Shown here: piece after piece, positions 30,387-52,525 of the stretch
How positions within the stretch are numbered: the stretch's first letter is position 1
How the letters are laid out: every line of letters begins with the position of its first letter
Source of the DNA: Acidobacteriaceae bacterium UBA1307
Lineage (GTDB): Bacteria; Acidobacteriota; Terriglobia; Terriglobales; Acidobacteriaceae
Direction: 5' to 3'
Length of the DNA: 64,000 nt
Assembly: GCA_002307235.1 (NCBI GenBank)
Contig: DBTV01000037.1
Span: forward strand, 15,981 to 79,980
Position numbers and translations under genes: made by a program
Notes under the pieces: generated by a model
The model's database searches: none
The model's input: only the letters and a program-made list of their open reading frames with translations
What the model was told of the DNA's origin: nothing

Positions 30387-30462
30387 GGGCCTGTGGCGCA
30401 GTTGGGAGCGCGCTTCCATGGCATGGAAGAGGTCATCGGTTCGATCCCGATCAGGTCCACCA
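30387..30462 (+). tRNA. tRNA-Ala (anticodon GGC), CCA encoded
   Basis: Hand-folded cloverleaf with a 7-bp acceptor stem including the Ala identity pair G3:U70. D arm GCGC/GCGC. Anticodon stem CTTCC/GGAAG with loop AT-GGC-AT. T arm ATCGG-TTCGATC-CCGAT. Discriminator A followed by CCA. Confidence 0.9.
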
Positions 30463-30533
30463 ATTATTTCAATAACTTACAGGGTTTGCGCTGAATTCTT
30501 AAAGGTCCCGAAAGGTCCATTAAAAGAACGTCC

Positions 30534-31739
30534 TCACTTTGTATCGATTTTCTCCATCAACATCCCCGCCACCTTCGACTGAGCCTGACGTTTGGCCGAC
30601 GAGATCGCCTGTGCATACACTTCCAGCGTCATTTTGATCGTCGCGTGCCGGAGCAGTTCCTGCACCACCTTGATGTCCTCGCCGTTCGCCTTGAGCAAAG
30701 TTGAAAAGGTGCGCCGGAAGGTATGCCATCCAACGTGCTTCAGAATCTTTGCCCGCGTGACAGCGGGACGGATGTGGCGCTTAAGGAGTGAATCGGGGCT
30801 GTAGGGCTGCTTACCCTTCATTCGCGTGCTGGCGAAGACCCAGTCCTCCGGCTGGTTATAAGCAGTCGCCCGTCGCCAAGTGAGCAATTCCTCTGCGATC
30901 CACGGATCGAGCGGAACCGGCTTGCGGGAGATTTCCGTCTTGCAGCGTCCTACCACCTGACGGTAGATGGACCGAGTGACAGAAAGCTCAAGCTGCTCGA
31001 AGTCCACGTCCAGCCACTTGATGGCCATCAGTTCGCTGCGGCGGAGTCCGGTGACCGAATCCAGCAGTACCATCACCCGATCCCGATGCGACAACTGATC
31101 GAAGAGCAACCGGAGTTCCCCGGCTTCGAGGATGTCTGGAGTCTGCATCCGCTTTGCGCTTTGCCGCACCAACGTGATCGGGTTGGTGCCTTGCGGCATC
31201 AACTCGTGGCGAATGGCGTGATTGAACAGAACGCTCATAATGGACCGGATCTTCGCTTTGCTCCCGCGCGCCAGATTCTCTTTACTCTTGCCGGCTCGTT
31301 TGAGATTGCGCAGCCACTTTTCAACCTGGGTGGTTCGCACCTTACGCAACTCGACGTCGCCCCATTTCGGTAGAACATAGGTATCGAGGATGTCCGAGTA
31401 AGTCGTCCGAGTGGCATAAGAACGGCCTTCCTCTTCGTCATCTTCCCTCTCGACAGGACCGAGTTCGCGCTGCTTAAAGTGGGTAATGAGAGCGCCCACC
31501 GTAATCGGCTGCCCGCCTGATTGCGGTTGCTCTTCGTTAATGGTGATGCGTAAAGCTTCCACGGCTTTCAGAGCGCTGGTCTCGGTCGGGTATTCTTTGA
31601 CCGTTCCCAGCGTCTTCGTCCTGCGTACCCGCTTTCCGCTGGCATCGATGTCCCACCAGCGAAAGGCCCAGCAATCCGGCCCATGCTTCCGCTTCACGCG
31701 GTTTAACATTCCCTGTTGATACCGTGTCCGTCGAAACAT
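30534..31739 (-). CDS. int: Tyrosine-type site-specific integrase
   Basis: Catalytic contexts TGLRRSEL, VGWHTFRRTF and LLRHATIKMTLEVYAQ (R..HxxR..Y). The 3' end of the gene is 71 nt from the tRNA. Confidence 0.9.
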   Translation of the reverse strand: MFRRTRYQQGMLNRVKRKHGPDCWAFRWWDIDASGKRVRRTKTLGTVKEYPTETSALKAVEALRITINEEQPQSGGQPITVGALITHFKQRELGPVEREDDEEEGRSYATRTTYSDILDTYVLPKWGDVELRKVRTTQVEKWLRNLKRAGKSKENLARGSKAKIRSIMSVLFNHAIRHELMPQGTNPITLVRQSAKRMQTPDILEAGELRLLFDQLSHRDRVMVLLDSVTGLRRSELMAIKWLDVDFEQLELSVTRSIYRQVVGRCKTEISRKPVPLDPWIAEELLTWRRATAYNQPEDWVFASTRMKGKQPYSPDSLLKRHIRPAVTRAKILKHVGWHTFRRTFSTLLKANGEDIKVVQELLRHATIKMTLEVYAQAISSAKRQAQSKVAGMLMEKIDTK

Positions 31740-32008
31740 TATTTCCTCCTGTTTCGCACGGCACGGACCGCTGGCTCTGATGGTGCCATATTCTCGTCGC
31801 CGGTGTCCCGATTTTCCTGCATCATTTCTTGAACGAAGGACTCCAGGGCAGAGGCGCGGAACCGCCAGAGTTTGCCGAACTTCATCCCTGGAATTTCGCC
31901 TCTCCGCGCTCTCCGTTTCACGGTCTCAGGATGCACCCGCATGAGCTCCGCCGCCTGCTGGCTGTCCAGTAGCGGCTCAAATTCCTGATCGCCCTTCTTC
32001 TGGCCCAT
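31739..32008 (-). CDS. xis: Excisionase-family helix-turn-helix DNA-binding protein
   Basis: LLDSQQAAELMRVHPETVKRRARRGEIPGMKFGKLWRF. Its stop overlaps the integrase start (TAATG). Start at 32008 or 32023. Confidence 0.7.
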   Translation of the reverse strand: MGQKKGDQEFEPLLDSQQAAELMRVHPETVKRRARRGEIPGMKFGKLWRFRASALESFVQEMMQENRDTGDENMAPSEPAVRAVRNRRK

Positions 32009-32525
32009 GCCCTCTTCTCGCATTCATCTCCCCTGCCGGCACTGGATTCTCGCGGCAAGCGCCAAATGCGAGGAGCCGGAGCGCGGAAAGTCGCATCCGG
32101 TGGTGCCGATAGCCAGAAGATATGGTGATTTTGAGAGCGCGATTATTACTTTCTCGTACCGATCATTCCATCTGCGTCAATAATCCAGAACCACACTTTG
32201 CGGCAGACAAGACAGACCCGCCCACAACCCGAGCCATGGAAAATTGTGCGCCTGCGGTGTTCGCCGAGTGCATTGGCGGATTTAGGGTAAAGCGAGTATC
32301 ACTTCAGGCGAAAAGGGCGTTTGCCGATACTAATGCTTTCCGCCCTACGCAACTAATTCTGATGCTTAGGCTTCAGGGTCGCTGGAGGGCGATTTGGGCG
32401 TTATGCGTCAAGTTTGAATAGCGTGGCAGTCTCAGTCAAGCAGTTTAGCGCGGCTACAGACGCAATGGAAGAGACTCAGGCCAAGGTACGTTCCGGTAAA
32501 CTCGATAGGAGAAGGGCGGTCGAAA

Positions 32526-35039
32526 GTGACGTTCAAATCGCAATTCTCAGCCTCGCAAGATAAGGCGCACAACCGTAACATCGCGACGAAAATCCATGAG
32601 GAAATGGCGAAACTCCGTGCCGTCGTGGATGCATCGCCCACGACACCACGGCGCTGGGTCTGGGAATTGATCCAGAACGCCAAGGACGTGAATATCGAGG
32701 GAAAGGTTCGCGTTCGCATCGAAGCCGACCTGGGTGTCTCGGATGCGAACGTCACCTTCAAGCACAACGGCGGCGTATTCTCACCAGAGAATATCCGTTT
32801 CCTTATCGAGCAGGTATCGTCGAAGGACCGGACGCATGACAGCGGCGGGCGTCCCACGACGACGGGAAAGTTCGGCACGGGGTTTCTCACCACTCACCTC
32901 CTGTCCGAACGCGTCCTTGTCAGGGGTGTTGCGGAGGGACGAGGCTTCGCGCCCAGAAAGTTCAAGCTGTCGCTCGATCGCAGCGGCGCTGAGTTGCAAG
33001 ACATCATCGACGCCGTACAAGCTGCGAAAGACTCAATCCTAAACCTAGACGACCAACCGGAGTATACCGGATACGTCCCCGGAAAATTCAATACTGCCTT
33101 CCGCTATGAACTCGCAGACAAGACTGGCAGGAAGGTTGCGAGCGCTGGTTTGGCAGACCTTGATGTCTGCCTACCCTATACGCTCGCGTTCGTGCGGGAG
33201 ATCGAAAGCGTCGAGTACCCGAACCGTTGGTTGAGCCTGCAAGATCCCGACAATGAACGGGTAAACGGCGAGGTACAAATTCTTTCCGTGATCACTGCGG
33301 ACCCCAGAGGGGGCGCCGATTCTGAGATTTCCTCGATCGCGGTACTGACCAGCGACCTGATAACAATTGCGATACCAGTTAAGCAGACAGCCGACGGTGT
33401 GCGCATCCTTCCGCTTGGTCCTGACGTGCCCCGATTGTTCTGCGATTTTCCGCTCCTCGGCAGCGAATCCTTTCCATTCCCGGTGATCATCAACAATCCT
33501 ACGTTCAATCCGACCGAACCACGGGACGGCGTGTTCCTCACCAAAACCGACCGCCCCTCCTCTCAGATTGACCACAACAAATGCATCATCGAGAAAGCGC
33601 TCGCGCTCTACCTCTCGCTGCTCGAATACGCGTCTGACAACGACTGGCAGCATCTCCATCTTCTCGCCGCCGTAAAGCCTGTTGCATCAGAGCTTGCGCG
33701 GCTTGATAAAATTTGGTACAGAACCGCGATCCTCAAGCCGATGCTGGACACGCTCCTTCACACCAAAATCGTGCGAACAGCAGCGGGCAAACTGGCTCCG
33801 ATTCATTCGCCTGGCGGTAACATCTGGTTTCCGGCCGGTACGACCGAAAAAATCCGACGTGCCATTTGGCGGTGTTGCAAGACGTGGATTCCAGAGCAGC
33901 TACCGGCGCAATCGGACGTAGAAGTCTGGTTTGACATCATTTGGCCCGAGTGCGACAAACTCACACTCGATCAGGTCTCCGCCTTCGTTGAGGAAGACGA
34001 TACAATCGAAAAGCTGGCATCGGAACTGCAGGAAAAAGAAGTCCACGAATGGCTCATGGAGTTCTACGCCACGTTGAAGCTCGACGAGTCCACCTACCAG
34101 GCGGTGATCAACAAACGCCGCATCTTTCCGAACCAGAACGGCACCTTCAAGCGGAAAGCCGACCTCTTCCGCGACGCCGGCGATATCGACCCCACGCTCA
34201 TGGACATCCTCACGTTATTGGGGACGGACCTGCGCGATCAGCTCCTCGATACGGGAATCTCAACAGACCTTGATGATCTCTCCAAGAGAGATGGAGCCTT
34301 CGTTGTCAAGGAAATCACGGCGACGATCGAGAAAAACCTCAATGATCGGGCTGCCACGAAACTCTTTCGCCCCGCACTTGCCAAGCTGCTGCTGTGGTTT
34401 CGCGAAAACACGTCGCGCGCAAAGAAGCTCTTCCCGATGCTTTATGACCAAAAACACTTGCTCTATGACGACGAGCAAATCCTAAACAACATCGAGCGCG
34501 CCGAGGAATTAAACGAACTCCTCGGCGAATACAACGTGAAGAGCGTTGATGAGCTTCGTGCCGTTATCGAGAAGCACACAGCGACTTCACAGCTCTTGCC
34601 CGTGACGCAGCAGATCATCGCCAACCTAGGAATTACCTCCATAGAGGAATGGACGAAAGCGCTCGAAGACAAGGACTTGGCCGCTCTTTTCTCCCATCAG
34701 TCTACAACCACTCCCGAGATGTTCGTTTTAGCGCAATCGTTGATCAAAAAAGCCAAGAAACGTGTCATCGCCCATCTTTTAGAACTTGACCAATACGACC
34801 TTACCGAGATCGACGAGACGGCGCCCACAGTGCTCGCAGGAGTCAAGAAGAACGGCCGGGATGTGACCATCGTGGTGAGACCCGCGTATGATGGCACGGT
34901 GATCATCTACTACCGATCGGAACGCGACGTCCTGGATTTCGTAGACCACGAACTCTGGGTAGATACAGGCAAGGACGTCCAACGAATCACCTTCGGCCAC
35001 ATTCTGAAGAAAACCAATATTCGACGGTTCCCGATATAA
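32526..35039 (+). CDS. Sacsin/MORC/Hsp90-like GHKL ATPase with large helical middle region and possible DUF3883-like C-terminal module
   Basis: Bergerat-fold motifs ELIQNAKDV, HNGGVFSPENI and GKFGTGFLT. No His-kinase features. C-terminus VTIVVRPAYDGTVIIYYRSERDVLDFVDHELWV. GTG start. Confidence 0.7.
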   Translation: MTFKSQFSASQDKAHNRNIATKIHEEMAKLRAVVDASPTTPRRWVWELIQNAKDVNIEGKVRVRIEADLGVSDANVTFKHNGGVFSPENIRFLIEQVSSKDRTHDSGGRPTTTGKFGTGFLTTHLLSERVLVRGVAEGRGFAPRKFKLSLDRSGAELQDIIDAVQAAKDSILNLDDQPEYTGYVPGKFNTAFRYELADKTGRKVASAGLADLDVCLPYTLAFVREIESVEYPNRWLSLQDPDNERVNGEVQILSVITADPRGGADSEISSIAVLTSDLITIAIPVKQTADGVRILPLGPDVPRLFCDFPLLGSESFPFPVIINNPTFNPTEPRDGVFLTKTDRPSSQIDHNKCIIEKALALYLSLLEYASDNDWQHLHLLAAVKPVASELARLDKIWYRTAILKPMLDTLLHTKIVRTAAGKLAPIHSPGGNIWFPAGTTEKIRRAIWRCCKTWIPEQLPAQSDVEVWFDIIWPECDKLTLDQVSAFVEEDDTIEKLASELQEKEVHEWLMEFYATLKLDESTYQAVINKRRIFPNQNGTFKRKADLFRDAGDIDPTLMDILTLLGTDLRDQLLDTGISTDLDDLSKRDGAFVVKEITATIEKNLNDRAATKLFRPALAKLLLWFRENTSRAKKLFPMLYDQKHLLYDDEQILNNIERAEELNELLGEYNVKSVDELRAVIEKHTATSQLLPVTQQIIANLGITSIEEWTKALEDKDLAALFSHQSTTTPEMFVLAQSLIKKAKKRVIAHLLELDQYDLTEIDETAPTVLAGVKKNGRDVTIVVRPAYDGTVIIYYRSERDVLDFVDHELWVDTGKDVQRITFGHILKKTNIRRFPI

Positions 35040-35043
35040 CGCC

Positions 35044-36114
35044 ATGGACATCGCTCAAGACATCTTGGACCGCATTGGTCAACCTGAATCCGAGCAGCTG
35101 GAATACAAAGCGGTGCTGCCACCTGCTGCGACCGTAGCGCAATTGATGAGCTCATTCGCCAATGCAAAGGGAGGAGCCATCGTTCTCGGCGTCGTCGAGA
35201 ACGGTAAAGAGGTCCTCATTAACGGCCTCAGCGATGAATTCCGCGCGGTACAAATCACCCGCAAGGCAATCGATCTGCTCTCTCCATCTCCCACTGCGAA
35301 GTATGACTACATCGTTCATCAGGGCAAGCGCCTCTTCGTCATCGACGTGCAGAAGTCGGACGTATCAGTCTCGCTTGCGGGCAAGAGTTATATCCGGACT
35401 GGTGACCGCACGATTCTCAGGCAGACAGTTCCTGATAAGGCCATCCGAAACACTGGTATTGCCCACCTATCGAAAACTTTCAAAGAGAGCCGCAAGTCTT
35501 GCACCGCCGCGAGAGCGAAGCTGTTGGACCATTACGAAAGCGTTCTCCTTGTCCTCGACGATCTCGGCGATCTCCTATATCCAAAATCGTCAAACCGCCC
35601 GACCGATAATGCTGAAGGCAAGATGCTGATGCGTATCCTCTTCTCCTCGTGCGCTGACACGTTTGAAATCTTCTTATCAGATCTGCTCTACGAAATCTAC
35701 CTTGCGAAGCCCGAGACACTCAAATCTAACGCGCAAGTGACTGTCAAGGAGGTCCTGGATTGCTCCGACATGCAAGAGTTCATCAGCCATCAAGCCAAGG
35801 AGAAACTAAGAAAGCTTAAACGCGGCAGCGTCAAAGGTTTCATCTCGGACAACAAACAGATAAAGTCACTGGATGTGTTCGATACAACGCGGCAAGGAGA
35901 GATCGAGAAAATCTTAGAGATTCGGCATCTCTACGCTCATCAGAATGGACTTGTTGACGAACACTTCCGGAAATACTTTCCTGCCGTAAACCTCAACGAC
36001 GAATATCGGATGACTCTCGATGAGTTTTTGACGCGCTTCGAGTATCTTGCACAAGCCATCGACGCGGTAGATGAGGCCGCGCGTAACGACTACCAGTTGG
36101 CATCCTTTTCATGA
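35044..36114 (+). CDS. AlbA_2 (Schlafen-type) domain protein with C-terminal HEPN-like domain
   Basis: N-terminus ESEQLEYKAVLPP...FANAKGGAIVLGVVENGKEV matches the AlbA_2 pattern. C-terminal helical domain carries Rx4H (EIRHLYAHQNG, 35923-35940). Starts 4 nt after the upstream stop. Confidence 0.65.
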   Translation: MDIAQDILDRIGQPESEQLEYKAVLPPAATVAQLMSSFANAKGGAIVLGVVENGKEVLINGLSDEFRAVQITRKAIDLLSPSPTAKYDYIVHQGKRLFVIDVQKSDVSVSLAGKSYIRTGDRTILRQTVPDKAIRNTGIAHLSKTFKESRKSCTAARAKLLDHYESVLLVLDDLGDLLYPKSSNRPTDNAEGKMLMRILFSSCADTFEIFLSDLLYEIYLAKPETLKSNAQVTVKEVLDCSDMQEFISHQAKEKLRKLKRGSVKGFISDNKQIKSLDVFDTTRQGEIEKILEIRHLYAHQNGLVDEHFRKYFPAVNLNDEYRMTLDEFLTRFEYLAQAIDAVDEAARNDYQLASFS

Positions 36115-36130
36115 ATTGGATCGGTACCAT

Positions 36131-36199
36131 AATGTCGCCATGGCGACGCGAATCCAGGACCTGGTTTTGTCATCAATGGTTCCCATAGGAACGGCGTTT
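36131..36199 (+). repeat. Intergenic two-hairpin repeat, copy A
   Basis: Contains aatGTCGCCATGGCGACgcgaat (perfect 14-nt palindrome), then tcatcaatgGTTCCcataGGAACggcgttt. About 80 percent identical to copy B by hand alignment. Confidence 0.7.
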
Positions 36200-36411
36200 C
36201 CCGGTACGAATCGTTCATGGAATCGGTTTTCTTAGCACGCTAGTGAGTAAATGCGCAGCTGGAGGATTCGGCTTCCCCCACTCTTTCCACTTGTTTTCAA
36301 TTACTTACCAAACATCCTCAAGCCCAAGGGACAATTTGCTGTGGGGATTTTGGGGAACTGCGTTACACTTTCTATTCATCAGCATTTATCGTTTCTCGAC
36401 ACCAAGGTGAA

Positions 36412-37497
36412 ATGTCGCTAGAAGAGCATTTCAACTCAGTCAATCCGCGCGAGGACTCAGGTGCACCAGTCTCTGACCGCTTCCAATACCAAAAGGATTG
36501 GGCGCTGTGCCATCTCCTGAGGTTGCACGCAGATAATGTCGATTACCTGATGGCATTTGATATCCACGACGACGTGGTAATTTTTCAGCCGGAGCAGTCT
36601 CCAAACAAAATCTGCTTCTATCAGGTAAAGACCAAGAAGACGGGTGAAACCTGGACCAAAGGAAAACTCATTGAGCGCCCTAAAGGAAAAGACGGCAATC
36701 CACTCCCTTCAATAGTCGGAAAGATGTATAGCAACGTACTGCTCTTCGCAGATTATGCTCAATGCTCAACGTTCCTTTCCAACGTGCCCTGTAAGCTTGA
36801 ACTGTCGCCCGATGGTAAGCAGGCAGTTCTCTTGAGTGATGTGCGCACTCCCTTCGAAAACCTGCCAAAAAAGTATAGGACAGATATATCGGAAGCTGTA
36901 AAGCAGGAACATTTGCTTACAGCCGACCCGATTCTTGAAAAAATGCTTTGGTTCGAGCTATCCGAACTTCCGCTCGAAGGTCACTCGACTCACACAAAGG
37001 GAAAGCTTGCAGAGTTCTTGGAGGCGCGCAAGCCAGGCAAGTACAACACGCCGCTTGCTTACAAAACTCTCAGTGATGAGTTAAAACGGCGAAATGACTA
37101 CAATCGGCGGAATTTAAGGTTTTCCGAAATGGTCAAATTCAAGGCAATCGGCAGAAGCGAGTTTGAAAAGATCCTCTCAGTTGCTGTTCCTGATGAGACC
37201 GCAGAAAACACATGGCCCGAAGTTGCTGCCCATTTGCTTGATGAGCAATTTGGATTGCAGAAAACTCTCAAGCTTAAGAAAGCTTGGTTCAAAGTTGACA
37301 TGTATCGTTCGGATGCGAGCGATTCTGCATTTTGGGAGACCGCCGAAGTGGCGGCCTCGATAGTCCCCAATCATAGTGATCTGAAACATCTCTTGAGTGA
37401 CGGACTCGAAGACCTCAAGAACAAGATTGCCTGCAGTGTAAAGTTTGAGGATGATATGCTAAGGGCCGTCCTCCTCTTTCAGTTGTTCTGTTCGTAG
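36412..37497 (+). CDS. lmuA: Lamassu effector LmuA, Cap4-type nuclease (DUF4297) N-domain
   Basis: DRFQYQKDWALCHLLRL...MAFDIHDDVVIF...FYQVKTKK fits the DUF4297/Cap4 PD-(D/E)xK pattern. Lies directly upstream of an LmuB-like gene. Confidence 0.7.
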   Translation: MSLEEHFNSVNPREDSGAPVSDRFQYQKDWALCHLLRLHADNVDYLMAFDIHDDVVIFQPEQSPNKICFYQVKTKKTGETWTKGKLIERPKGKDGNPLPSIVGKMYSNVLLFADYAQCSTFLSNVPCKLELSPDGKQAVLLSDVRTPFENLPKKYRTDISEAVKQEHLLTADPILEKMLWFELSELPLEGHSTHTKGKLAEFLEARKPGKYNTPLAYKTLSDELKRRNDYNRRNLRFSEMVKFKAIGRSEFEKILSVAVPDETAENTWPEVAAHLLDEQFGLQKTLKLKKAWFKVDMYRSDASDSAFWETAEVAASIVPNHSDLKHLLSDGLEDLKNKIACSVKFEDDMLRAVLLFQLFCS

Positions 37498-37566
37498 ACC
37501 ACACAACCATGAAGAAACGAAATGCATTTCGTCGTGTTATACGATTCCTGAGGCTAAAGAAAACTC

Positions 37567-39264
37567 TTGCAATCACTGATTCTGAAAAAACTACACCTGC
37601 TGTCGACGACGGAAAAGACGGCAAGACAAGTCGAGTTCGATCCGACGAGAACTCTGGTCCACGGGTCTAATCAGACGGGCAAGTCATCACTCCTCAAGTC
37701 AATCTATTGGGTTTTGGGGGCAGAGCCTGCAGCAGTCAATCCCCGCTGGCTGCAGGCTGATGTTATTGCTCTCCTTGAGTTTGAGCTCGATGGAACAATA
37801 GGGATGATTCTTCGTCATAAGAATCAGTTTGCTGTGTTCCAAGCAGACGGCACGTTGGTCCAGAAGTTCAACAAAGTGTCTTCAGAATTGGGCCCCTATC
37901 TGGCTCAGCAATTCAATTTCAGGCTAAAGCTGTCGACTCGCGGGGGTGATACTGAAATCCCCTCTCCAGCCTACCTATATCTGCCTTACTATGTAGACCA
38001 GGATGCAAGCTGGAAGAGCAACTGGTGTTCTTTTAAGAATCTCGCGCAATATCCATCTTGGCGAAAAGACGTAGCAGAGTTCCATGCGGGAATTCGGCCC
38101 GGTGCATACTATGAACTGAAGGGGCAGAAAACCAAGATAGATTCAGATATAGCTGCCAACGAAGCCGAAAGTAAGATCTTGGAAAACATCATCGGAAGAA
38201 TCCGCAAGACATTTAATTCTTCTGAATTTGATATAAACCTCGCCGATTTTGAGAAAGAAATACAACTCTTGCTGGATGAATCCGGCAAGCTTCTGAAGAA
38301 ACAAAATGAGTACAAGGCGAAATTCACTGCGCTGCATGGCGAACGGATGGAACTTTCGGAGCAGATTCGATTCGCAGAACGTGCAGCCCATGACCTCGAA
38401 AAAGATTACCATTTTGCCACCACCGATACTTCTGAAGCCGAGGTGCATTGCCCGGTCTGCGGGACTGAATATCAGAACTCATTCGCTGAGCGATTTACGA
38501 TTGCTGCTGATGAAGATCGGCTTCTAGTCCTCGTTGCCGACTTAAGAAATCGCATCAGTTCCATTGACGAAGAAGTGGCGTCACTTAACTTGGAGTTTCG
38601 CAAGAACACATCAGAGCTAACAAGAATCGCTGATTTGCTAGCCGTCAAGCGCGAATCGATCACGCTGAAGCAAATCCTGAGCCTGGAAGGTAAGCGCGAA
38701 GCCGATTCTGCACTTAACGACAGAAAAGACGAGCTAGCCAAGGAACTTTTGTCCTTTGCAGAAGACCTGAAACTACTGGCGAAACAGCTCAAAGCATTGA
38801 CAGACAAAAAGCGTGGGGACGAAATTACAGCGTTCTATGTCGCCAAAATGAGGTCCTATCTTTTTAGCCTGCAGTCATCCCTGCATGAGGATACTTACAA
38901 GAAAGTGGATTGCAGTGTTAAGGAGACTGGGAGTAACCTCCCTAGGGCACTACTGGCGTACTACTTCAGCCTCCTGCATACAATTCGGAAGTATGGTGAT
39001 GGAACATATTGCCCTATCGTCATAGACTCACCCAATCAGCAAGCTCAGGACAAGCCCAATCTGACAGCGATACTGAGTTTCATTCGCGATAATCAGCCGT
39101 CTGGCTCTCAAATGATTCTAGGACTTGAGGACGATCTAGGACTGAACATACCTGGACTCAAAATTGAACTTGATAGCAAATACCATCTCTTAAAGTCTGA
39201 CCAGTATAGGGAGACTGCGGACCTGATGCTCCCGATGCTCGCCTCTATGCTGCGTCTGAGTTGA
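37567..39264 (+). CDS. lmuB: Lamassu SMC/Rad50-like ATPase LmuB (DUF3732-type)
   Basis: Walker A GSNQTGKSSLLKS. Long coiled coil with a CPVCG zinc-hook-like apex. C-terminal PIVIDSPNQQAQD matches the DQPSQ-type motif of DUF3732. TTG start per track. Confidence 0.75.
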   Translation: MQSLILKKLHLLSTTEKTARQVEFDPTRTLVHGSNQTGKSSLLKSIYWVLGAEPAAVNPRWLQADVIALLEFELDGTIGMILRHKNQFAVFQADGTLVQKFNKVSSELGPYLAQQFNFRLKLSTRGGDTEIPSPAYLYLPYYVDQDASWKSNWCSFKNLAQYPSWRKDVAEFHAGIRPGAYYELKGQKTKIDSDIAANEAESKILENIIGRIRKTFNSSEFDINLADFEKEIQLLLDESGKLLKKQNEYKAKFTALHGERMELSEQIRFAERAAHDLEKDYHFATTDTSEAEVHCPVCGTEYQNSFAERFTIAADEDRLLVLVADLRNRISSIDEEVASLNLEFRKNTSELTRIADLLAVKRESITLKQILSLEGKREADSALNDRKDELAKELLSFAEDLKLLAKQLKALTDKKRGDEITAFYVAKMRSYLFSLQSSLHEDTYKKVDCSVKETGSNLPRALLAYYFSLLHTIRKYGDGTYCPIVIDSPNQQAQDKPNLTAILSFIRDNQPSGSQMILGLEDDLGLNIPGLKIELDSKYHLLKSDQYRETADLMLPMLASMLRLS

Positions 39265-39475
39265 TTATTGGGAACTCCGCAGATTTTGGAGATTCTACAC
39301 TGTCTAATGAAGACACTCAATAGGCAAGTGGTCCTCAGGGTCCAGGGGGAAGTGAGTCCTACCACTATCTATGGGTGTTCCTTAATGTCTGTATTTTGAC
39401 CACGTCCCGACACTTGACACTTTGACTGAGAGACCAGGGGCACTACCAAATGTTCTCACCGGCAATTACTCCTCA

Positions 39476-39551
39476 AATGTCGCCATTGCTAGAACCTCAT
39501 GCTCTTCCGCCGGGCTGGGGTCTAGGAAGGCTCCCAGAGCCTACGGCGTTT
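39476..39551 (+). repeat. Intergenic repeat, degenerate copy D
   Basis: Shares aatgtcgccat at the 5' end and acggcgttt at the 3' end with copy A, at similar spacing (76 vs 69 nt). Downstream cgttcattgaat matches cgttcatggaat after copy A. Confidence 0.4.
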
Positions 39552-39683
39552 TTGGGGATCGATCCAGGGAATCCCGTTCATTGAATTGTGGTGCCCACCC
39601 ATTTGAAAACCGCTGGACGTTTTCGTCCGATTCCCTCGCCGGTTCCATGGCGTCTAGGCAGCAGAATTCCTACTCTCCGATTT

Positions 39684-40943
39684 TCATTCGGCGACAATTC
39701 CGGCGGGAGCGCTTAGGTTCGTTGGAATATCGAAGGCCATCACGGTGAGAGTAATCTCTCGGTTCGCATCGTTCGGCTGTGCGAAGACGTACCGGAAAGT
39801 GCTCTCGTCAGATTTGCCAAGATCGCGTTTGAAATTGCTATGCGTTGGAACAGCTTCGTCGATCTTTGAGAGAACAGCCGTGAAATCAGCATTTCTGTTG
39901 AAAATGATGACAGCGGTCTTCGTGTCTCTCCAACTCAGATAGGAGAGAAGCTGGTCGAGGGTTGCGAGAAATGCCTTTTCACCTTTCCAGAATTTACACT
40001 CGCCAATAAAAACGCTCTTCCCATCGACGCGAATGAGAATGTCGGTCTTACCCTGGAAATTGAATGTCTCCCCGGTGGCCTGGCCCTGAAAGGCGCCGTT
40101 AAGCTGCACAAGAAAGTGGAAGCGCAGGTCTTCTTCGCCCATGCCTGAAAATGCGTGAGGGCTGAGTTCCATTACTTGCACCATGTTCTTCATGATGCGG
40201 AGTATTTCCTGATAATCCTCGTCGGAGAGAGCGGGCTCGGGCTTGAATGACCCTTGCGTTCTGATCTGCTCGACCTTCGGCACGCGCCGAGAGACGGGAA
40301 CGGCATAGGTGGCGGGTGCGCCGGCGCGCCTTTTCATCGGCAGACCGATCGCCGCCGTCATGCCGGCATCCGCAAGAAGCCGGTCTTTGCGGGTCTTGAT
40401 CTGCGACGTGACCAAATTTTCAAGCTGGCTGTTGAATTGCGCTGCCGATTCCGAGAGAGAGCGCAAGTACTGCTTGATGGAATTCACGGTTCCCTGGTAA
40501 TCGCGCTTAATCGCCTCGGCGTTCTGATCCGTTCTGACATAGGTGAGGAGCAGTTCGCCTTTTCCAATCATAGCTCGGGGTGGACTGAGCGAATAGCTGC
40601 TGGGCTGGACATTGAAAAACTCCGCATCGCCCTTGAAGGGCACCGCGATGACCGTCCTGTTGCCGGGAACATAGAAAGCTCGCGACCGGTCGTAAATCCC
40701 TCTCATGGGATCGCCGCTAACATCGACCTGGGTTTCCCCAGATTCGGCGATATAGATGCCGTCATCGTCAATCACAGGCACATTCAGGCGGAATTCTTCG
40801 ATGAGCGCCTCAACGAGGTCGTGTTCGCTTGCGTTCAGGAGGGTGGCGGACGGAATCGCCTGTATCCTCTTCTTTACGGCCTGCGGTTGGTTCTGCAGAA
40901 TTCCGAATATCTCATATTTATTGAACAGAAGCTCGTCATTCAT
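39684..40943 (-). CDS. Hypothetical protein with C-terminal PD-(D/E)xK nuclease-like domain
   Basis: GKTDILIRVDGKSVFIGECKFWKG gives the D...ExK core (39993-40043). No recognisable N-domain. ATG 40943 follows AAGAGG. Confidence 0.6.
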   Translation of the reverse strand: MNDELLFNKYEIFGILQNQPQAVKKRIQAIPSATLLNASEHDLVEALIEEFRLNVPVIDDDGIYIAESGETQVDVSGDPMRGIYDRSRAFYVPGNRTVIAVPFKGDAEFFNVQPSSYSLSPPRAMIGKGELLLTYVRTDQNAEAIKRDYQGTVNSIKQYLRSLSESAAQFNSQLENLVTSQIKTRKDRLLADAGMTAAIGLPMKRRAGAPATYAVPVSRRVPKVEQIRTQGSFKPEPALSDEDYQEILRIMKNMVQVMELSPHAFSGMGEEDLRFHFLVQLNGAFQGQATGETFNFQGKTDILIRVDGKSVFIGECKFWKGEKAFLATLDQLLSYLSWRDTKTAVIIFNRNADFTAVLSKIDEAVPTHSNFKRDLGKSDESTFRYVFAQPNDANREITLTVMAFDIPTNLSAPAGIVAE

Positions 40944-41103
40944 GTGGGCGCCTCTTAACATGTGCAGACTTCTATGTCTGATCGTCTTCCCAAGTTTGCA
41001 GAAACTATCGCGTACAACAATTGAAATTGTAAATCGATCCCCGAAAGAGGTGAACACCATCTCAGTCGCGGCATGGCGGCGTTCGGCCCACCGGATCGGT
41101 CCC

Positions 41104-41172
41104 GAGTCGGCATGGCGACGCGAATTCCCGGATCGGGGCAGTCATCATTGGTTCCCGTTGGGAACGGCGTTT
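41104..41172 (+). repeat. Intergenic two-hairpin repeat, copy B
   Basis: Contains gtcggCATGGCGACGCGAAT, then gtcatcattgGTTCCCgttGGGAACggcgttt. The second hairpin is conserved with a different loop from copy A. Confidence 0.7.
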
Positions 41173-41196
41173 TCGAGGAGTAATGACATGCGCCGC

Positions 41197-42558
41197 TTAT
41201 AGAATGACGTCAGAATCCGCAGGTTGCGATGTATTTTTCGATTTTACCCATTTGAGAAATGCTTCAATCTCGTCCGGATGAGAGGGTGAGGATCTGTAAC
41301 CGGCAAGCTCAATCACAGCGCGTCGAAGCACGCTCGCCACGAATTCTTCGAGTCCGTCTCGGTCGATTCCAATATGCGGCTGAAGTGTGGACATGACACC
41401 GTGGAGGATTTTTGACCGATTTTCCACAATGGACTTCGCAAATTCATTAGCGGTCGTAGATGATCCAGAAACGATAGGGGCCTCCGGTTTTAGATTGAAA
41501 AAGGCTTCCAACACTAAGCGGATTCGCCGTTGACTTCCTTTCGTGCTTGTCGATTTCAAAAGGACCTCAAGCGATGTCTCAAGCTTCGCTATCGCGATAG
41601 AATCTATTCGTTCCGCCAAAGCCTCGTGATACCAATAGGCGGCATCGCACCAAGCTCGCTCTAACAGGGGAAGCGTAAAGTGGCCGTTAGCAAACGCTGT
41701 CACGCATATCCCAACCGCATCGACCAAAGTCGCGCAGTTTAGCAAAATGTCCTGCATAGTTCCCGGGCCGATATTGATGCCTGCATCGTGAATGCTGTGA
41801 CTGCCACAGTCCGTCGTGGCCGTTCGAGAGAGCGTCTGGCTTTTGGCTCCACCACGACGTGCATCGAGCCTAGACATCCTCCGCGTATTCCATGAAGTCG
41901 GGAGGGCCAACTGCAGCGTCACAATGGCCAGATCGGCTGCAAGCGCCCCGATCTCCTCGCCTCGCTCTTGGTCACTGCCTTCGACGCTGATCTGAGCAAG
42001 CCAGTGAGCACGTTCCGACTTCATGCGTTCGAGCATTGCGTCGAAGTTTTTCCTTAGCATCGAATCCGCAATAGGGGGGTAGAAGTCGGCTCGGGGGACA
42101 TCATCCACGTAAATGAAACGCACCGACCCGATCGTGAATTGCGAAGCAGGCCAGGGCGAAATCGCACATGGAACAAAGACTACGCGAGGTTCAGCCTCGT
42201 GCTGAAACCACGTCCTCAGCTGAGCAACTAGAGCCGTGACATCGTTTGACAGCAGCAACGCGGGGTCGCTCCCAATGTGGCTCTCGATCGCCGTGAAAAT
42301 CTTTCGTCTGATGCGCCGAAAATCGATGCCACGATCCAAGCCTTGGCATTCCTTGATTAGTGCTTGTGCAAGACTGTCGAGTGCGTCGTACGCATCCCGA
42401 GTGAAGACGGCAGTACCTCTTAAACTAGGTAAAAACCACACCATCCCCTCTGATCGAAGATAGTCCGGCGTGACGTCGAGAAAATGGATCGGCCGTTCTT
42501 CTGTACCTCGAATGACAGCGCGCAGCAGCCCCAACTCTCTTCCATAGTCAGATGGCAT
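41197..42558 (-). CDS. Hypothetical protein with C-terminal HEPN-like helical domain
   Basis: 453 aa. C-terminal helical region with an Rx4H signature in IVENRSKILHGV (41401-41418). No other recognisable motifs. Confidence 0.45.
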   Translation of the reverse strand: MPSDYGRELGLLRAVIRGTEERPIHFLDVTPDYLRSEGMVWFLPSLRGTAVFTRDAYDALDSLAQALIKECQGLDRGIDFRRIRRKIFTAIESHIGSDPALLLSNDVTALVAQLRTWFQHEAEPRVVFVPCAISPWPASQFTIGSVRFIYVDDVPRADFYPPIADSMLRKNFDAMLERMKSERAHWLAQISVEGSDQERGEEIGALAADLAIVTLQLALPTSWNTRRMSRLDARRGGAKSQTLSRTATTDCGSHSIHDAGINIGPGTMQDILLNCATLVDAVGICVTAFANGHFTLPLLERAWCDAAYWYHEALAERIDSIAIAKLETSLEVLLKSTSTKGSQRRIRLVLEAFFNLKPEAPIVSGSSTTANEFAKSIVENRSKILHGVMSTLQPHIGIDRDGLEEFVASVLRRAVIELAGYRSSPSHPDEIEAFLKWVKSKNTSQPADSDVIL

Positions 42559-42678
42559 GAATCCACTCCAAGGCTCGGCTCAGCCCGAAGGCAGCCGGTT
42601 GCAGTCCCATAACGCTCATTCTTTCATGAAAGGTGCTAGCTTCTCGAAAACCTCTCAATAGAATTTCTGTCAGATTAG

Positions 42679-42752
42679 TAATGGCAAGTCGCCCAGCCTC
42701 CTGGATTCCGGCTGCCCTTGCCGGTGCTTGATCTCCGGCCGGAACGGCGTTT
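42679..42752 (+). repeat. Intergenic repeat, degenerate copy C
   Basis: taatggcaagtcgcc...cctggatt...TCCGGCCGGAacggcgttt. The terminal 12 nt ggaacggcgttt are identical to copies A and B and are preceded by a palindrome. Confidence 0.4.
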
Positions 42753-43385
42753 ATGAACTGCTCTTCTCGTTCTCATCTCCCAGCAATAAAGCCGAGTTCC
42801 TGAGCCTGCTCCAGCCGGACGACGAGCCGCGCTGCGAGGAAGACATGATCATGATCCCGCGCCAGGGTGAGAACAAAGCAGCACAGCCCATCGCATGACG
42901 TGCTGCCTGCAGACGTCATGCGGCAGGCCACTGTCATTGCTACGATGCTGTGCTGCGACAGTTCGGATACTGTCCAGGAGTCACGCCCCCCTCGCATATC
43001 GATTGCATAGCCTGAAGCCATCCATGGAGCCGCTCTTCTGACGTGCGATTTTGTGGCGTATGCCATCGACTCCTTTATCTCCAATCCCACGCTCTGTGCA
43101 TCGCCCGGACACTGCTTCGGGTTTTAACCGCCGCCCTGCGGACTGCGCGTGTTCTGCTTCGGCTTGCCATCCCGCGGGCGAAGAACTGTCCGCGGGGACC
43201 CCGGCAGGACAGCCGCCCTGTGGGTTTCGGGTCCCTCCAAAACAATCTTCCGCAAAGGACACGGAACATTCTTTTGGCCCTCCCGAAAAAGCACACGCTT
43301 GCCTTGGGAGGCGGACCCCTCGCATCGCTTCGCGTGGTGTGTCCCGGTCGCCTTCAGAGACATGGGACCAAAGGAGATTTCAGAG

Positions 43386-44348
43386 ATGGCAACCACGTCA
43401 GTAGCAATTGCACAGCAGAGCAGCTTCATCAACCAGATCCTTCATGGCGATTGCATCGATATGATGCGTCAGATGTCTGCGAATAGCGTCGATTTCATCC
43501 TCACCGATCCGCCGTATCTGGTGAACTACCGCGACCGCGATGGACGCTCCATTCAGAACGACGCCGATGAGGCCTGGCTCAAACCGGCAATGGCAGAAGC
43601 GTATCGCGTGTTGAAGCAGAACCGCGTAGCCGTCATGTTCTACGGCTGGACGAAGGTCGATGCGTTCTTCGAAGCATGGCGCAGCGCAGGTTTCCAGCCT
43701 GTCGGGCACATCGTATTTCGCAAGAGCTACAGCTCGAAGAGCAGGTTCCTCCGCTATCAGCATGAGCAGGCATTCCTGCTGGCCAAGGGCAGGCCGCCGT
43801 TGCCGAAGCAGCCGCTGGGCGATGTGATGGATATGCCCTACAGTGGCAACAAGCTCCATCCCACGCAGAAACCGATCGCAGCTCTGGTGCCGTTGATCCG
43901 CAGCTTTACTCTACCCGGCGAGAGCGTTCTCGATCCCTTCGCGGGAAGCGGAAGCACCTGCGCAGCCGCGCTGCTTACAGGTCGCAAGTATATCGGCATG
44001 GAAATGGACGAAAAGTATTACACCGAAGCGAGCGATCGTTTGACCAGAGTCCACCAGAGGGTCGCCCAAAGGCGATCTTCTGGTTCGGGCATTCCCACGC
44101 GAGTGTGGTGTTACTCGCGTGCCCGCCACGCCTCAAGGCGAGCTGTCGCTCTGAGCCGTGATGATCGCGGCCTTGACCCGCGACATGCCCGCGAATTCTT
44201 TGCTGGTCATGGTGGGAATGCCCATCTCTGCGCCTCCACGGCGCGAGAAGCTCACATGCTTTCCGTTCCCAACCTGTGTCGCACACGCCACCATCTGTGT
44301 CTCTCGATTATTGACGTAGATGAAATGACCGGAATGAAAAGGCAATAA
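43386..44348 (+). CDS. Orphan N6-adenine/N4-cytosine DNA methyltransferase (beta class, PF01555-like); 3' end doubtful
   Basis: Motif IV DPPY (FILTDPPYLVNY) precedes motif I (VLDPFAGSGSTCAAA). ATG 43386 follows AAGGAGA. The last ~100 codons look non-protein-like. Confidence 0.8.
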   Translation: MATTSVAIAQQSSFINQILHGDCIDMMRQMSANSVDFILTDPPYLVNYRDRDGRSIQNDADEAWLKPAMAEAYRVLKQNRVAVMFYGWTKVDAFFEAWRSAGFQPVGHIVFRKSYSSKSRFLRYQHEQAFLLAKGRPPLPKQPLGDVMDMPYSGNKLHPTQKPIAALVPLIRSFTLPGESVLDPFAGSGSTCAAALLTGRKYIGMEMDEKYYTEASDRLTRVHQRVAQRRSSGSGIPTRVWCYSRARHASRRAVALSRDDRGLDPRHAREFFAGHGGNAHLCASTAREAHMLSVPNLCRTRHHLCLSIIDVDEMTGMKRQ

Positions 44349-52132: not shown

Positions 52133-52525
52133 ATGCGACCAAAGAACCCCATCGTGCTCTATTGCGCCGACCGCGATCTGCTGTCGGCTACAGCGTTCGC
52201 GCTGCGCCTCCACCCCTATGAGGTAACGGCTGTCGATGACAGCCGTAATGCCGCAGCGCTCATGATGGCAGACTCGACCGAGCTTGTCTGCGGTGTGCTG
52301 GTCCATGCACGACAGAATGATTCTGCTGGCCGGATGATTCACCGTCTGCTCGAATCGGATCTGCATGTTCCTCTGTTGCTTGTGGACCGCACCGGCGACC
52401 TTGCGCCCGTACGTTACGCCGAAATGGTTCTCTACGGCCGCAATACTTCAATGGCTCATATCCTCGCTACCCTCCAGATTCTGTGTGAGCGCAAGCGCGG
52501 CCCCCGGCCGAGGAGTGGCGCATGA
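52133..52525 (+). CDS. Hypothetical protein, receiver(CheY)-like fold without phospho-acceptor Asp (tentative)
   Basis: Alternating beta/alpha pattern IVLYCADRD...VTAVDD...CGVLVHAR...VPLLLVD. His occupies the expected Asp position. Coupled by ATGA to the next gene. Confidence 0.35.
   Translation: MRPKNPIVLYCADRDLLSATAFALRLHPYEVTAVDDSRNAAALMMADSTELVCGVLVHARQNDSAGRMIHRLLESDLHVPLLLVDRTGDLAPVRYAEMVLYGRNTSMAHILATLQILCERKRGPRPRSGA

What the first reader, a model, noticed from the sequence alone, without database searches (positions are those of the whole stretch)
36131..42752. Recurring ~70-nt two-hairpin intergenic element marks the boundaries of each defence cassette
Copies A (36131-36199) and B (41104-41172) share CATGGCGACGCGAAT (15/15) and GTCATCA(A/T)TGGTTCCC (15/16), and both end in GGAACGGCGTTT. 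They are about 80 percent identical overall by hand alignment. Both fold into a 5' palindrome (GTCGCCATGGCGAC in A) and a 3' hairpin. The 3' stem is kept but the loop differs (GTTCC-CATA-GGAAC vs GTTCCC-GTT-GGGAAC), which suggests selection on structure. Degenerate copies D (39476-39551) and C (42679-42752) keep the termini (aatgtcgccat ... acggcgttt). All four lie in the same orientation regardless of the direction of neighbouring genes. They fall exactly between modules: [GHKL+HEPN] A [Lamassu] D [PD-(D/E)xK gene] B [HEPN gene] C [methyltransferase]. This looks like a cassette-junction or recombination-site signature rather than a gene-specific terminator or 5' UTR. A possible weak fifth copy lies near 32300-32330.
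Basis: seen in the sequence. Interest (0 to 1): 0.65.

Follow-up and report, generated by a model that had tools for sequence, protein, structure and literature searches.

The report
Cassette-junction repeat in acidobacterial ICE
A non-coding repeat of about 95 bases sits, always in the same direction, at every boundary between four anti-phage gene modules on a conjugative element of a peat-soil acidobacterium; its end pieces are swapped between copies in a way that suggests modules were spliced in at the repeat, so it looks like a gene-cassette docking site whose enzyme is unknown.

Summary
The repeat is real. A (36118-36213) and B (41093-41186) are clear copies. D (39464-39565) scores above background. 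C (42671-42752) and the suspected fifth copy E (32278-36) are degenerate but supported by relatives. All five lie on the + strand in the five intergenic gaps of a 10.5-kb cargo block, in a hot spot of a tRNA-Ala ICE of an uncultured Acidobacteriaceae-like bacterium. None lies in the other 16 large gaps of the window.

Six more copies occur in peat metagenome contigs with unrelated flanks. No Rfam, plasmid or phage match was found. RNA structure, terminator and promoter readings are not supported.

The element has a conserved core ending in ACGGCGTTT, flanked by a variable head and a tail that complements a head. Three near-identical ICEs diverge exactly after GGCGTTT of E, and C joins the backbone at the same position. 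D's head pairs with B's tail, B's head with D's tail, and C's head with E's tail. This nested pattern is what insertion of circular cassettes into a resident copy, with crossover at the core/tail border, would produce.

It works like integron attC cassettes or IS26 translocatable units but is neither. The enzyme is unknown. A plain MITE reading is not excluded.

The parts
32278..32336 (+). Copy E: a short (59-nt), internally deleted copy. Head GGATTTAGGGTAAAG, box GGGCGTTT ending at 32322, tail GCCGATACTAATGC (32323-32336). It forms the left end of the variable cargo.
   Evidence: Orthologues in L038 and L037 are aligned. The L038 version scores E = 0.006 against the 3' end and tail of the model. 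Identity runs 36-38/38 in the backbone, 41/45 in E up to GTTT, 9-10/14 in the tail, then random.
36118..36213 (+). Copy A: full length. The core ends at 36199 and the tail is CCCGGTACGAATCG. It is flanked by TTCATGAAT / TTCATGGAAT.
   Evidence: E = 3.5e-24. Flanking direct repeat.
39464..39565 (+). Copy D: degenerate full-length copy. Head AATTACTCCTC, box ACGGCGTTT ending at 39551, tail TTGGGGATCGATCC.
   Evidence: nhmmer full-length alignment. Model-global score 31.3 against background of at most 18.
41093..41186 (+). Copy B: canonical full-length copy. The core ends at 41172 and the tail is TCGAGGAGTAATGA.
   Evidence: E = 2.2e-24. It is 86-91% identical to the metagenome copies by blastn.
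42671..42752 (+). Copy C: degenerate centre, head CAGATTAGTAATGGCAAGTCGCC, ends GGAACGGCGTTT, no tail. It joins directly to the remnant of a backbone gene.
   Evidence: The junction is shown.
32323..42752 (.). Inferred outer inserted unit: tail of E, then module 1, A, module 2, D-type site, module 4, then head and core of C. Joined end to end it would rebuild a complete C-type element.
   Evidence: Head of C against tail of E: 10/12 complementary, with a 7-nt exact run. p is about 7e-4 per random 15-mer.
39552..41172 (.). Inferred inner inserted unit: B-type tail, PDC-S54 gene, then head and core of B. It sits between the core of D and D's native tail, which now lies at 41173-41186.
   Evidence: Head of D against tail of B: 11/12 with a 10-nt exact run, ATTACTCCTC, p about 2e-4. 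Head of B against tail of D: 10/12, p about 1e-3. Each head against its own tail: 8 and 5.
32526..36114 (+). Module 1: TmtA-like GHKL ATPase (32526-35039) plus Schlafen/AlbA_2 protein (35044-36114).
36412..39264 (+). Module 2: Lamassu LmuA (36412-37497) plus LmuB (37567-39264).
   Evidence: Module homology to L036 spans 36319-39265, and homology to L035 ends at 39266.
39684..40943 (-). Module 3: PDC-S54 candidate defence gene (419 aa as called elsewhere).
41197..42558 (-). Module 4: 453-aa protein with no family match.
42752..42898 (+). Remnant (residues 73-120) of a 144-147-aa backbone gene that is intact in cargo-free relatives.
30387..32023 (.). ICE left end: tRNA-Ala(GGC) 30387-30462, tyrosine integrase 30534-31739 (-), AlpA/Xis-like HTH 31739-32023 (-).
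43149..44348 (+). First backbone gene to the right of the hot spot, an N6/N4 DNA methyltransferase. A VirB-type T4SS follows.

Best explanation
The element is a site at which DNA modules are joined. It has a conserved core of about 68 nt (…AAAGTCGCC … GGAACGGCGTTT). A variable head of about 14 nt lies on the left and a 14-nt tail on the right, and the tail is the reverse complement of a head.

Shown: five same-strand copies bound the four modules of the cargo. Breakpoints between ICE variants and between cargo and backbone fall at the core/tail border. Head and tail types are exchanged between copies in a nested pattern.

Inferred: a circular unit carrying one complete element (tail-genes-head-core) recombines with a resident element. 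The crossover lies in or just after the only box common to all copies, ACGGCGTTT. The resident head and core become joined to the incoming tail, and the incoming head and core to the resident tail. Repeating this builds an array of modules separated by directly oriented copies, whatever the gene direction.

At least two such events are readable. A large unit (32323-42752) entered at E. A PDC-S54 unit (39552-41172) entered at the D-type site. The D and B cores share only those 9 bases near the junction, so the exchange is more likely site-specific (an unidentified trans-acting recombinase or nicking enzyme) than RecA-driven.
For: Reality and family.

Distribution: 5 of 5 cargo gaps versus 0 of 16 other gaps of at least 100 nt in the window. 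ACGGCGTTT occurs only in A, D, B and C.

Fixed breakpoint: the window, L038 and L037 are 36-38/38 identical up to E and 41/45 within E up to GTTT. The tails then match 9-10/14 and the next 40 nt 9-14/40. C joins the backbone gene remnant right after GTTT. Family-wide identity falls from 86% in the core to 45% in the tail at the same point.

Swapped partners: head D with tail B 11/12 (10-nt exact run), head B with tail D 10/12, head C with tail E 10/12. Own-tail scores are 8 and 5; C has no tail. The null from 20,000 window 15-mers gives p = 2e-4 to 1.3e-3.

Cargo really differs at this spot. L038, L037 and L040 carry other DNA next to E. L013, L018, L019 and L048 carry short or other cargo.

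Shared cassette DNA: the cargo of L040 and L037 is homologous to DNA flanking the element in L034, and the homology ends at the head. L024's copy lies 16-24 nt from a synteny break.

Not an assembly artefact. The same arrangement is called in a 97-kb JGI contig and in an independent Logan contig. The junction homologies of 9-12 nt are far below assembler k-mers.
Against: No recombinase or transposase specific to the element was found. The ICE integrase's tRNA att core shows no significant similarity to the element.

Cargo-free or differently loaded relatives of the ICE have no copy, so the first entry is unexplained.

Relatives of the Lamassu module (L035 at 90% DNA identity, L036 at 75%) lack flanking copies. 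Their homology ends 107 nt from A and 199 nt from D.

A keeps a tail of its own type and has a possible 9-10-bp flanking duplication. That fits plain transposition.

Several metagenome copies sit beside ordinary genes on contigs too short to judge.

The head/tail analysis was devised after seeing the data and rests on few copies. The five full metagenome copies were found with a pattern that forces 20 core bases to match.
Confidence: 0.58

Rival explanations
1. It is an ordinary selfish MITE. A non-autonomous transposon of about 95 bp with imperfect 20-24-bp terminal inverted repeats (GGATTGGTCCYGTAAAGTCGCC / GGCGTTTACGGGGACYAATCC) inserted into the only permissive non-coding gaps of the island. 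Junction coincidences would arise because modules drag neighbouring copies along, or because of occasional recombination between copies.
For: It is small, non-coding and dispersed, and the flanks of all copies are unrelated. Head and tail are complementary at consensus level, and the inner AAAGTCGCC/GGCGTTT pairing appears in alifold. A has TTCATGAAT/TTCATGGAAT abutting both ends, plus a tail of its own type. Copies lie beside TetR/RND and OsmC genes. Empty ICE hot spots have no copy.
Against: The termini are the least conserved part (55% and 45% against 86% for the core), the reverse of typical MITEs. No target duplication was seen in the other 9 copies examined. Head and tail are mismatched within most copies but matched across copies in a nested order. 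No element-sized 'empty site' was found. No transposase with these ends was seen; the IS5-like ends in L038 differ. Copy number is low: there were no real hits in 185,579 species genomes with one pattern and only 5 in the metagenome collection with another, yet 5 copies lie within 10.5 kb here. The very unequal decay of copies in one young island argues that degenerate copies arrived with their DNA.
Confidence: 0.25
2. It provides portable homology. Copies are passive repeats, and RecA-dependent homologous recombination between them shuffles modules, with no dedicated enzyme.
For: Canonical copies share identical runs of up to about 24-32 nt in the 3' core. Direct repeats flanking each module would allow loop-out and re-insertion.
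Against: The D and B cores are unalike except for ACGGCGTTT, yet their tails are exchanged. E shares only a short box with the other copies, yet three ICE variants break at the same nucleotide. Homologous crossovers should scatter within the core and leave chimeric cores, which are not seen.
Confidence: 0.08
3. It is a transcribed regulatory element: a terminator, a 5'/3' UTR structure, a small RNA, or a shared operator that co-regulates the defence modules.
For: Three short palindromes are present, one a perfect 12-mer, TCGCCATGGCGA, in A. In most metagenome copies the element follows a co-directional ORF.
Against: Fold energies are no better than shuffles on either strand. The covariation term is unfavourable and the stems are invariant or broken on one side. 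There is no Rfam match even at E of 10 or less for B. No terminator- or promoter-like sites lie in the copies. Orientation ignores gene direction for B and C. Degenerate copies lose the centre, including the palindromes, but keep the ends.
Confidence: 0.05
4. It is chance similarity or a metagenome assembly artefact.
For: C and E are weak by profile score alone. All data come from metagenome contigs.
Against: A, B and five external copies reach E of 1e-22 or better. Two independent assemblies give the same island. The 9-mer statistics argue against chance. Junction homologies are much shorter than assembler k-mers.
Confidence: 0.03

Closest known systems
Integron gene cassettes and their attC sites
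   Same: Arrays of promoter-independent modules are each followed by a 60-140-nt imperfectly palindromic site. The sites all share one orientation whatever the gene direction. Their ends are conserved while the centre can vary. The crossover is at a fixed point near the 3' end, so the distal piece of each site belongs to the neighbouring cassette and the site is rebuilt when the cassette circularises. Defence systems are known integron cargo (bioRxiv 10.1101/2024.07.02.601686).
   Different: There is no IntI gene in the window. There are no RYYYAAC / GTTRRRY boxes. The exchanged piece is about 14 nt, not 6. Modules are large (1.5-3.8 kb, multi-gene) with their own upstream regions. The array lies in an ICE hot spot beside a P4-type integrase. 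The site also occurs singly elsewhere.
IS26 translocatable units (targeted conservative cointegration)
   Same: A circular unit with one copy of the repeat inserts next to a resident copy, with exchange at the end of the repeat. This gives modules interspersed with directly oriented copies and no new target duplication (PMC4196232, PMC7885326).
   Different: IS26 is 820 bp and encodes its own transposase. This element is about 95 nt and non-coding, so any enzyme must act in trans. IS26 needs sequence identity at the reacting end, whereas here only about 9 nt are shared.
MITEs and other small dispersed intergenic repeats (Correia/NEMIS, ERIC, RUP) - from general knowledge
   Same: It is about 100 nt, non-coding, has imperfect terminal inverted repeats, is intergenic, and has many copies with unrelated flanks.
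   Different: The termini are less conserved than the centre. No consistent target duplication was found. Copy number is low. Head and tail are mismatched within copies. Copies cluster strongly at the borders of variable DNA.
pdif modules (XerC/D-site-flanked modules on Acinetobacter plasmids) and IMEX arrays at dif - from general knowledge
   Same: Short recombination sites recognised by a host enzyme bound the modules, which are found in different contexts.
   Different: No 28-bp XerC-6-XerD architecture is visible. pdif sites alternate in orientation, whereas these are all direct.
HUH-enzyme nick sites (relaxase oriT nic, IS91/ISCR, IS200/IS605 ends) - from general knowledge
   Same: The geometry is a perfect hairpin (GGTTCCC-GTT-GGGAAC), then 7 nt (GGCGTTT), then the breakpoint. 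The arrangement is strand-specific, with the same orientation throughout and a sharp one-sided junction to variable DNA. The related ICE L019 encodes a TrwC-type relaxase.
   Different: No HUH gene lies next to the copies. No similarity to any oriT was tested or found. This resemblance is only a lead.

Membership tests
Integron attC site | Integron integrase (IntI) or attI nearby | tested here: not met
   The only recombinase in the window is a P4-type integrase beside tRNA-Ala, with AlpA. The rest is T4SS, methylases and a group II intron RT. CALIN-type arrays can lack IntI, so this alone is not decisive.
Integron attC site | R'' RYYYAAC at the 5' end and R' GTTRRRY at the 3' end, complementary to each other | tested here: not met
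   Read from alignment A2/A3. The ends are GGATYGGTCC… and …GGCGTTTACGGGGAC, with no purine run after GTT on either strand. IntegronFinder's attC model was not available.
Integron attC site | Same-orientation sites bound each cassette, with a fixed crossover near the 3' end so that the distal part is exchanged | tested here: met
   Five + strand copies. Breakpoints fall after GGCGTTT. Tails are swapped. The crossover is inferred, not observed.
MITE | Terminal inverted repeats | tested here: met
   Consensus head GGATTGGTCCYGTAAAGTCGCC against the reverse complement of GGCGTTTACGGGGACYAATCC. alifold pairs columns 9-13/87-91 and 20-23/78-81. The repeats are imperfect and often mismatched within a copy.
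MITE | Target-site duplication of constant length | tested here: inconclusive
   Only A has TTCATGAAT/TTCATGGAAT. Nine other copies show nothing above the cross-pair null.
MITE | Dispersed copies in unrelated contexts; non-coding | tested here: met
   Six external copies with unrelated flanks. No conserved ORF is present: the frame is broken between A and B and stops vary (read).
MITE | A parent IS with the same ends that encodes a transposase | not testable with these tools
The IS5-like element in L038 has different ends.
REP/BIME | 20-40-nt palindromic units in high copy number across the genome | tested here: not met
   The element is about 95 nt and composite. There are 0 copies in 53 kb of the window outside the cargo. 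There were no true hits in 185,579 species genomes with a 22-base pattern that 3 of 7 full-length copies match.
Any Rfam RNA family | Covariance-model match | tested here: not met
   Gathering threshold over the whole window: only tRNA and the group II intron. At E of 10 or less: nothing for B, noise only for L024.
Intrinsic terminator | GC-rich stem followed directly by a T run | tested here: not met
   No terminator-like site falls in any copy. Totals in the region are below the shuffle mean.
Tandem att repeats of tRNA-integrating islands | Copies of the 3' part of the target tRNA gene | tested here: not met
   No second copy of the tRNA-Ala 3' end at up to 3 mismatches. The local alignment of tRNA against the element is no better than shuffles.
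IS26-type translocatable unit | The repeat encodes its own DDE transposase | tested here: not met
   The element is about 95 nt with no ORF.

The most novel reading that the evidence does not exclude
This is an undescribed, integron-independent cassette system. It uses sites of about 95 nt with a fixed crossover at …ACGGCGTTT|tail, recognised by an unidentified trans-acting recombinase or HUH-type nickase. Through these sites, circular units carrying whole anti-phage systems are inserted one after another, and presumably excised, in the cargo hot spot of acidobacterial ICEs and at other loci.
Probability: 0.3. Interest if true: 0.85.

Novelty: new variant of a known kind. Interest (0 to 1): 0.62.

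Why it matters
How defence islands and ICE hot spots gain and lose whole systems so quickly is mostly unexplained outside integrons and phage-satellite hot spots. This case offers a concrete, readable signature: a nested exchange of site halves at a fixed nucleotide. It points to site-directed insertion of multi-gene defence cassettes in an under-studied soil phylum. If an enzyme can be tied to the site, the result would be a new cassette-capture system and a sequence tag for finding mobile defence modules in metagenomes. If it proves to be only a MITE, it remains a newly described repeat family of peat Acidobacteriaceae.

Tried and rejected
tRNA-derived att repeats: rejected.

Canonical attC or dif sites: the boxes are absent by inspection.

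Structured RNA: rejected.

Terminator or promoter: rejected.

Small conserved peptide from the internal ATG: the frame and stop are not conserved (read).

Pattern CATGGCGACGCGAATN{12,32}GTCATCA. The 5 hits in genome contigs come from unrelated phyla and match only the pattern itself. The 4 viral hits are one phage lineage with the motif upstream of a gene start, most likely chance. Ten of the 15 metagenome hits to the second pattern are chance, some in coding sequence.

Weak hit at 63113-63193 (-): it lies inside a VirB11-type ATPase gene and is taken as chance.

Target duplications: only A shows one.

Link to a particular integrase: the L034 integrase is unrelated to the ICE integrase.

IS5-like element in L038 as the parent: its ends differ.

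Relatives of PDC-S54 and the 453-aa gene in viral contigs: none or only distant.

Plasmid and phage collections: no match.

Empty-site test through TetR homologues: it gave a synteny break near the element rather than a clean empty site.


Full report
1. What is in the window.

A tRNA-Ala(GGC) gene lies at 30387-30462. It is followed by a P4-type tyrosine integrase (30534-31739, -) and an AlpA/Xis-like HTH gene (31739-32023, -). From 43149 onward there is an N6/N4 DNA methyltransferase, VirB3/B4/B9/B10/B6-type T4SS genes, a coupling protein and a VirB11-type ATPase. The island is therefore an integrative conjugative element (ICE).

Integrase homologues at 71-75% identity are named Silvibacterium, Edaphobacter and Acidobacteriaceae. 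The host is an uncultured Acidobacteriaceae-like bacterium. The exact integrase occurs in a 97-kb JGI contig and in an independent Logan contig (L001), both with the same gene order.

Between AlpA and the methylase lie four modules:
- a TmtA-like GHKL ATPase plus a Schlafen/AlbA_2 protein;
- Lamassu LmuA and LmuB;
- a PDC-S54 candidate defence gene (-; true start about 40943);
- a 453-aa protein with no family match (-).

2. The observation.

A and B align over 82 and 80 nt at about 77% identity. A profile built from them finds only A and B at E below 1e-20. CATGGCGACGCGAAT is unique to A and B. GGAACGGCGTTT is unique to A, B and C. ACGGCGTTT occurs only in A, D, B and C, all on +; 0.72 occurrences are expected and 0 of 100 shuffles reach 4.

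With the A/B profile alone, C scores E = 11 and D is not listed. I therefore looked for relatives elsewhere.

3. Relatives elsewhere.

A 22-base pattern from the 5' half gave only chance-like hits in 185,579 species genomes. In viral contigs it gave one phage lineage that shares nothing beyond the pattern.

A 20-base pattern from the 3' half gave 15 metagenome loci. Five of them (L021, L024, L025, L027, L034) hold full-length copies at E of 1e-25 to 1e-28. The other ten are chance. A sixth, degenerate copy lies in L035.

The flanks of all copies are unrelated to each other and to the window, at both DNA and translated level. Neighbouring genes are a TetR beside an RND pump, an OsmC-like gene, an SMC-type ATPase fragment with AraC and SDR genes, and an unknown gene near a primase and an integrase. 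In L035 the neighbours are Lamassu and another ATPase gene.

There is no match in Rfam, PLSDB plasmids or the phage collections. One caveat applies: the search pattern forces 20 core positions to be identical in the five full copies.

4. Anatomy (alignments A2/A3).

The core runs from AAAGTCGCC to GGAACGGCGTTT, about 68 nt. Its mean pairwise identity is 86%, or 80% without the pattern-forced columns. It is flanked by a 14-16-nt head (GGATYGGTCC-like, 55%) and a 14-nt tail (…GGGGACYAATCC-like, 45%). At consensus level the tail is the reverse complement of the head. AAA..CGCC also pairs with GGCGTTT, so the element has imperfect inverted ends of 20-24 nt.

With the 7-copy profile, D (39464-39565) becomes a full-length hit. 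In a model-global scan it scores 31.3 against a background maximum of 18.

C scores 13.5, the third-best hit after A and B are set aside, and it ends exactly at 42752. Its head, GTCAGATTAGTAATGGCAAGTCGCC, matches the heads of L024 and L035.

E (32278-32336) is a 59-nt internally deleted copy. Its orthologue in L038 reads GGATTTAGAGTAAAGCG…AAAACGGCGTTT TCGGGTACCAATCC.

5. What it is not.

- RNA folding is no better than shuffles on either strand.
- The consensus fold has an unfavourable covariation term. The 3' hairpin never varies, and the left arm of the 5' palindrome varies without compensation.
- No terminator- or promoter-like site falls in any copy.
- There is no conserved ORF.
- It is not a tRNA-derived att repeat.
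- The attC boxes are absent.

6. Relation to cargo boundaries.

Related ICEs (integrase 75-89% identical: L013/L014, L018, L019, L048) share the backbone up to about 32187-32200. Homology resumes at 43077-43092, or at 42752 in the case of L018. In between they carry only a conserved 144-147-aa gene or other short cargo, and no copy of the element.

In the window that backbone gene is cut. Only residues 73-120 remain, starting at 42752, immediately after GGAACGGCGTTT of C.

Three ICEs with 94-99% identical integrases carry other DNA in the hot spot. Compared with the window, L038 and L037 are:
- 36-38/38 identical just before E;
- 41/45 within E up to GTTT;
- 9-10/14 in the tail;
- random thereafter.

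The orthology break is therefore at the core/tail border. L040 breaks at the first bases of E's head instead. Its cargo there is an inverted L034-type head followed by DNA homologous to the flank of the L034 copy. L037's cargo also matches another part of L034 that ends at a head motif.

L024 is syntenic with four other contigs across the RND pump and TetR genes, up to 16-24 nt before its copy, and differs beyond that point.

In the window, all five cargo gaps hold a copy and none of the 16 other gaps of at least 100 nt does.

7. The head/tail test.

If a circle carrying one element integrates into a resident element by a crossover between core and tail, the two resulting copies should carry each other's tails. 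This is what the window shows:
- The head of D (AATTACTCCTC) complements the tail after B (GAGGAGTAAT) at 11/12, with a 10-nt exact run. Its own tail scores 8.
- The head of B (GGATCGGTCCC) complements the tail after D (GGGGATCGATCC) at 10/12. Its own tail scores 5.
- The head of C (AGATTAGTAATGGC) complements the tail after E (GCCGATACTAATGC) at 10/12.
- C itself is followed by backbone.

Against 20,000 random 15-mers from the window these scores have p = 2e-4, 1.3e-3 and 7e-4.

The pairs are nested: E[…D[…]B…]C. This reads as two events. A unit spanning 32323-42752 entered at E. A PDC-S54 unit spanning 39552-41172 entered at a D-type site that previously lay between Lamassu and the 453-aa gene.

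The D core is degenerate and the B core canonical, and they share only ACGGCGTTT next to the junction. The exchange point therefore lies in or just after that box. RecA-type homology is an unlikely driver.

A keeps a GTACC signature in both head and tail, and it has TTCATGAAT/TTCATGGAAT abutting its ends. It may be an unrecombined or transposed copy.

8. Weighing the evidence.

Points in favour of a recombination site:
- the fixed breakpoint, seen in four independent comparisons;
- the nested swapped tails;
- uniform orientation regardless of gene direction;
- local density despite low global copy number;
- very unequal decay of copies within an island whose backbone variants are 97-99% identical, which implies that degenerate copies arrived with their DNA.

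Points against it:
- no enzyme is identified;
- empty hot spots lack any copy;
- relatives of the Lamassu module (L035, L036) lack the element, and their homology ends 107 nt from A and 199 nt from D;
- one copy looks transposed;
- single copies sit beside ordinary genes;
- the key test was designed after seeing the data, on few sequences, all from metagenome assemblies.

Two independent assemblies agree, and the junction homologies are far shorter than assembler k-mers.

I put the site-directed cassette reading at about 0.58. A plain MITE is at 0.25, passive homology at 0.08, a regulatory RNA or operator at 0.05, and an artefact at 0.03.

9. Comparison with known systems.

The logic matches integron attC cassettes (defence cassettes in integrons: bioRxiv 10.1101/2024.07.02.601686) and IS26 translocatable units (PMC4196232, PMC7885326). 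Membership of both fails on defining features. There is no IntI and no R boxes, and the repeat encodes no transposase.

It shares size, inverted ends and dispersal with MITEs. It lacks consistent target duplications and conserved termini.

The hairpin-7 nt-breakpoint geometry recalls HUH nick sites. That is only a lead.

I class it as a new variant of a known kind: site-bounded gene cassettes. There is a minority chance that it is a new system.

Noticed in passing
window 52522-56028: A C-5 cytosine DNA methyltransferase gene appears to be split. The N-terminal part is at 52522-53490 and the C-terminal part at 54814-56028. A group II intron interrupts it (Rfam D1-D4 match at 53155-53379) and carries a reverse-transcriptase ORF at 53487-54965.
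   Followed up: partly
L038, L039, L040, L037 (next to the integrase): In these near-identical ICE copies, homology to the window stops at 30417-30419, inside the tRNA-Ala gene. No tRNA is called there. Different genes follow (a Cys/Met PLP-enzyme fragment and an IS5-like element). So about 45 nt of the tRNA 3' end is the att core, and these copies sit at another site or at the other junction.
   Followed up: partly
L034 6433-6470 (+) and 2409-2502 (-): L034 holds a second, minimal site: GAGATTGGCCGGTTAA GGCGAC TTT TCGGGAGTAATCGG. It is inverted relative to the full copy. Together the two bracket a segment of about 3.9 kb with primase and integrase genes. Parts of the L034 flanks recur as hot-spot cargo in L040 and L037.
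   Followed up: partly
L004-L007 (IMG/VR contigs): One phage lineage carries GCATGGCGACGCGAATC about 45 nt upstream of a gene start, after a terminator. It shares nothing else with the element, so the match is probably chance.
   Followed up: partly
window 63113-63193 (-): There is weak profile similarity to the element (nhmmer E about 0.1) inside the VirB11-type ATPase gene. I judged it to be chance.
   Followed up: yes
window 32526-36114: The TmtA-like protein (837 aa) matches only positions 1-640 of a 1063-position PADLOC TmtA model. A separate Schlafen/AlbA_2 protein follows it. This may be a split or variant Tiamat-like system.
   Followed up: no
window 32122-32421 and 39684-41060: The 99-aa ORF at 32122-32421 overlaps backbone non-coding DNA and copy E, and is probably not a gene. 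The PDC-S54 ORF is called from 40943 (419 aa) in other assemblies rather than from 41060.
   Followed up: partly
L048 7415-9718: A related ICE in a complete 4.6-Mb genome carries a PIN_10/DUF5615 plus DUF433 pair (toxin-antitoxin-like) in the same hot spot, with no copy of the element.
   Followed up: partly
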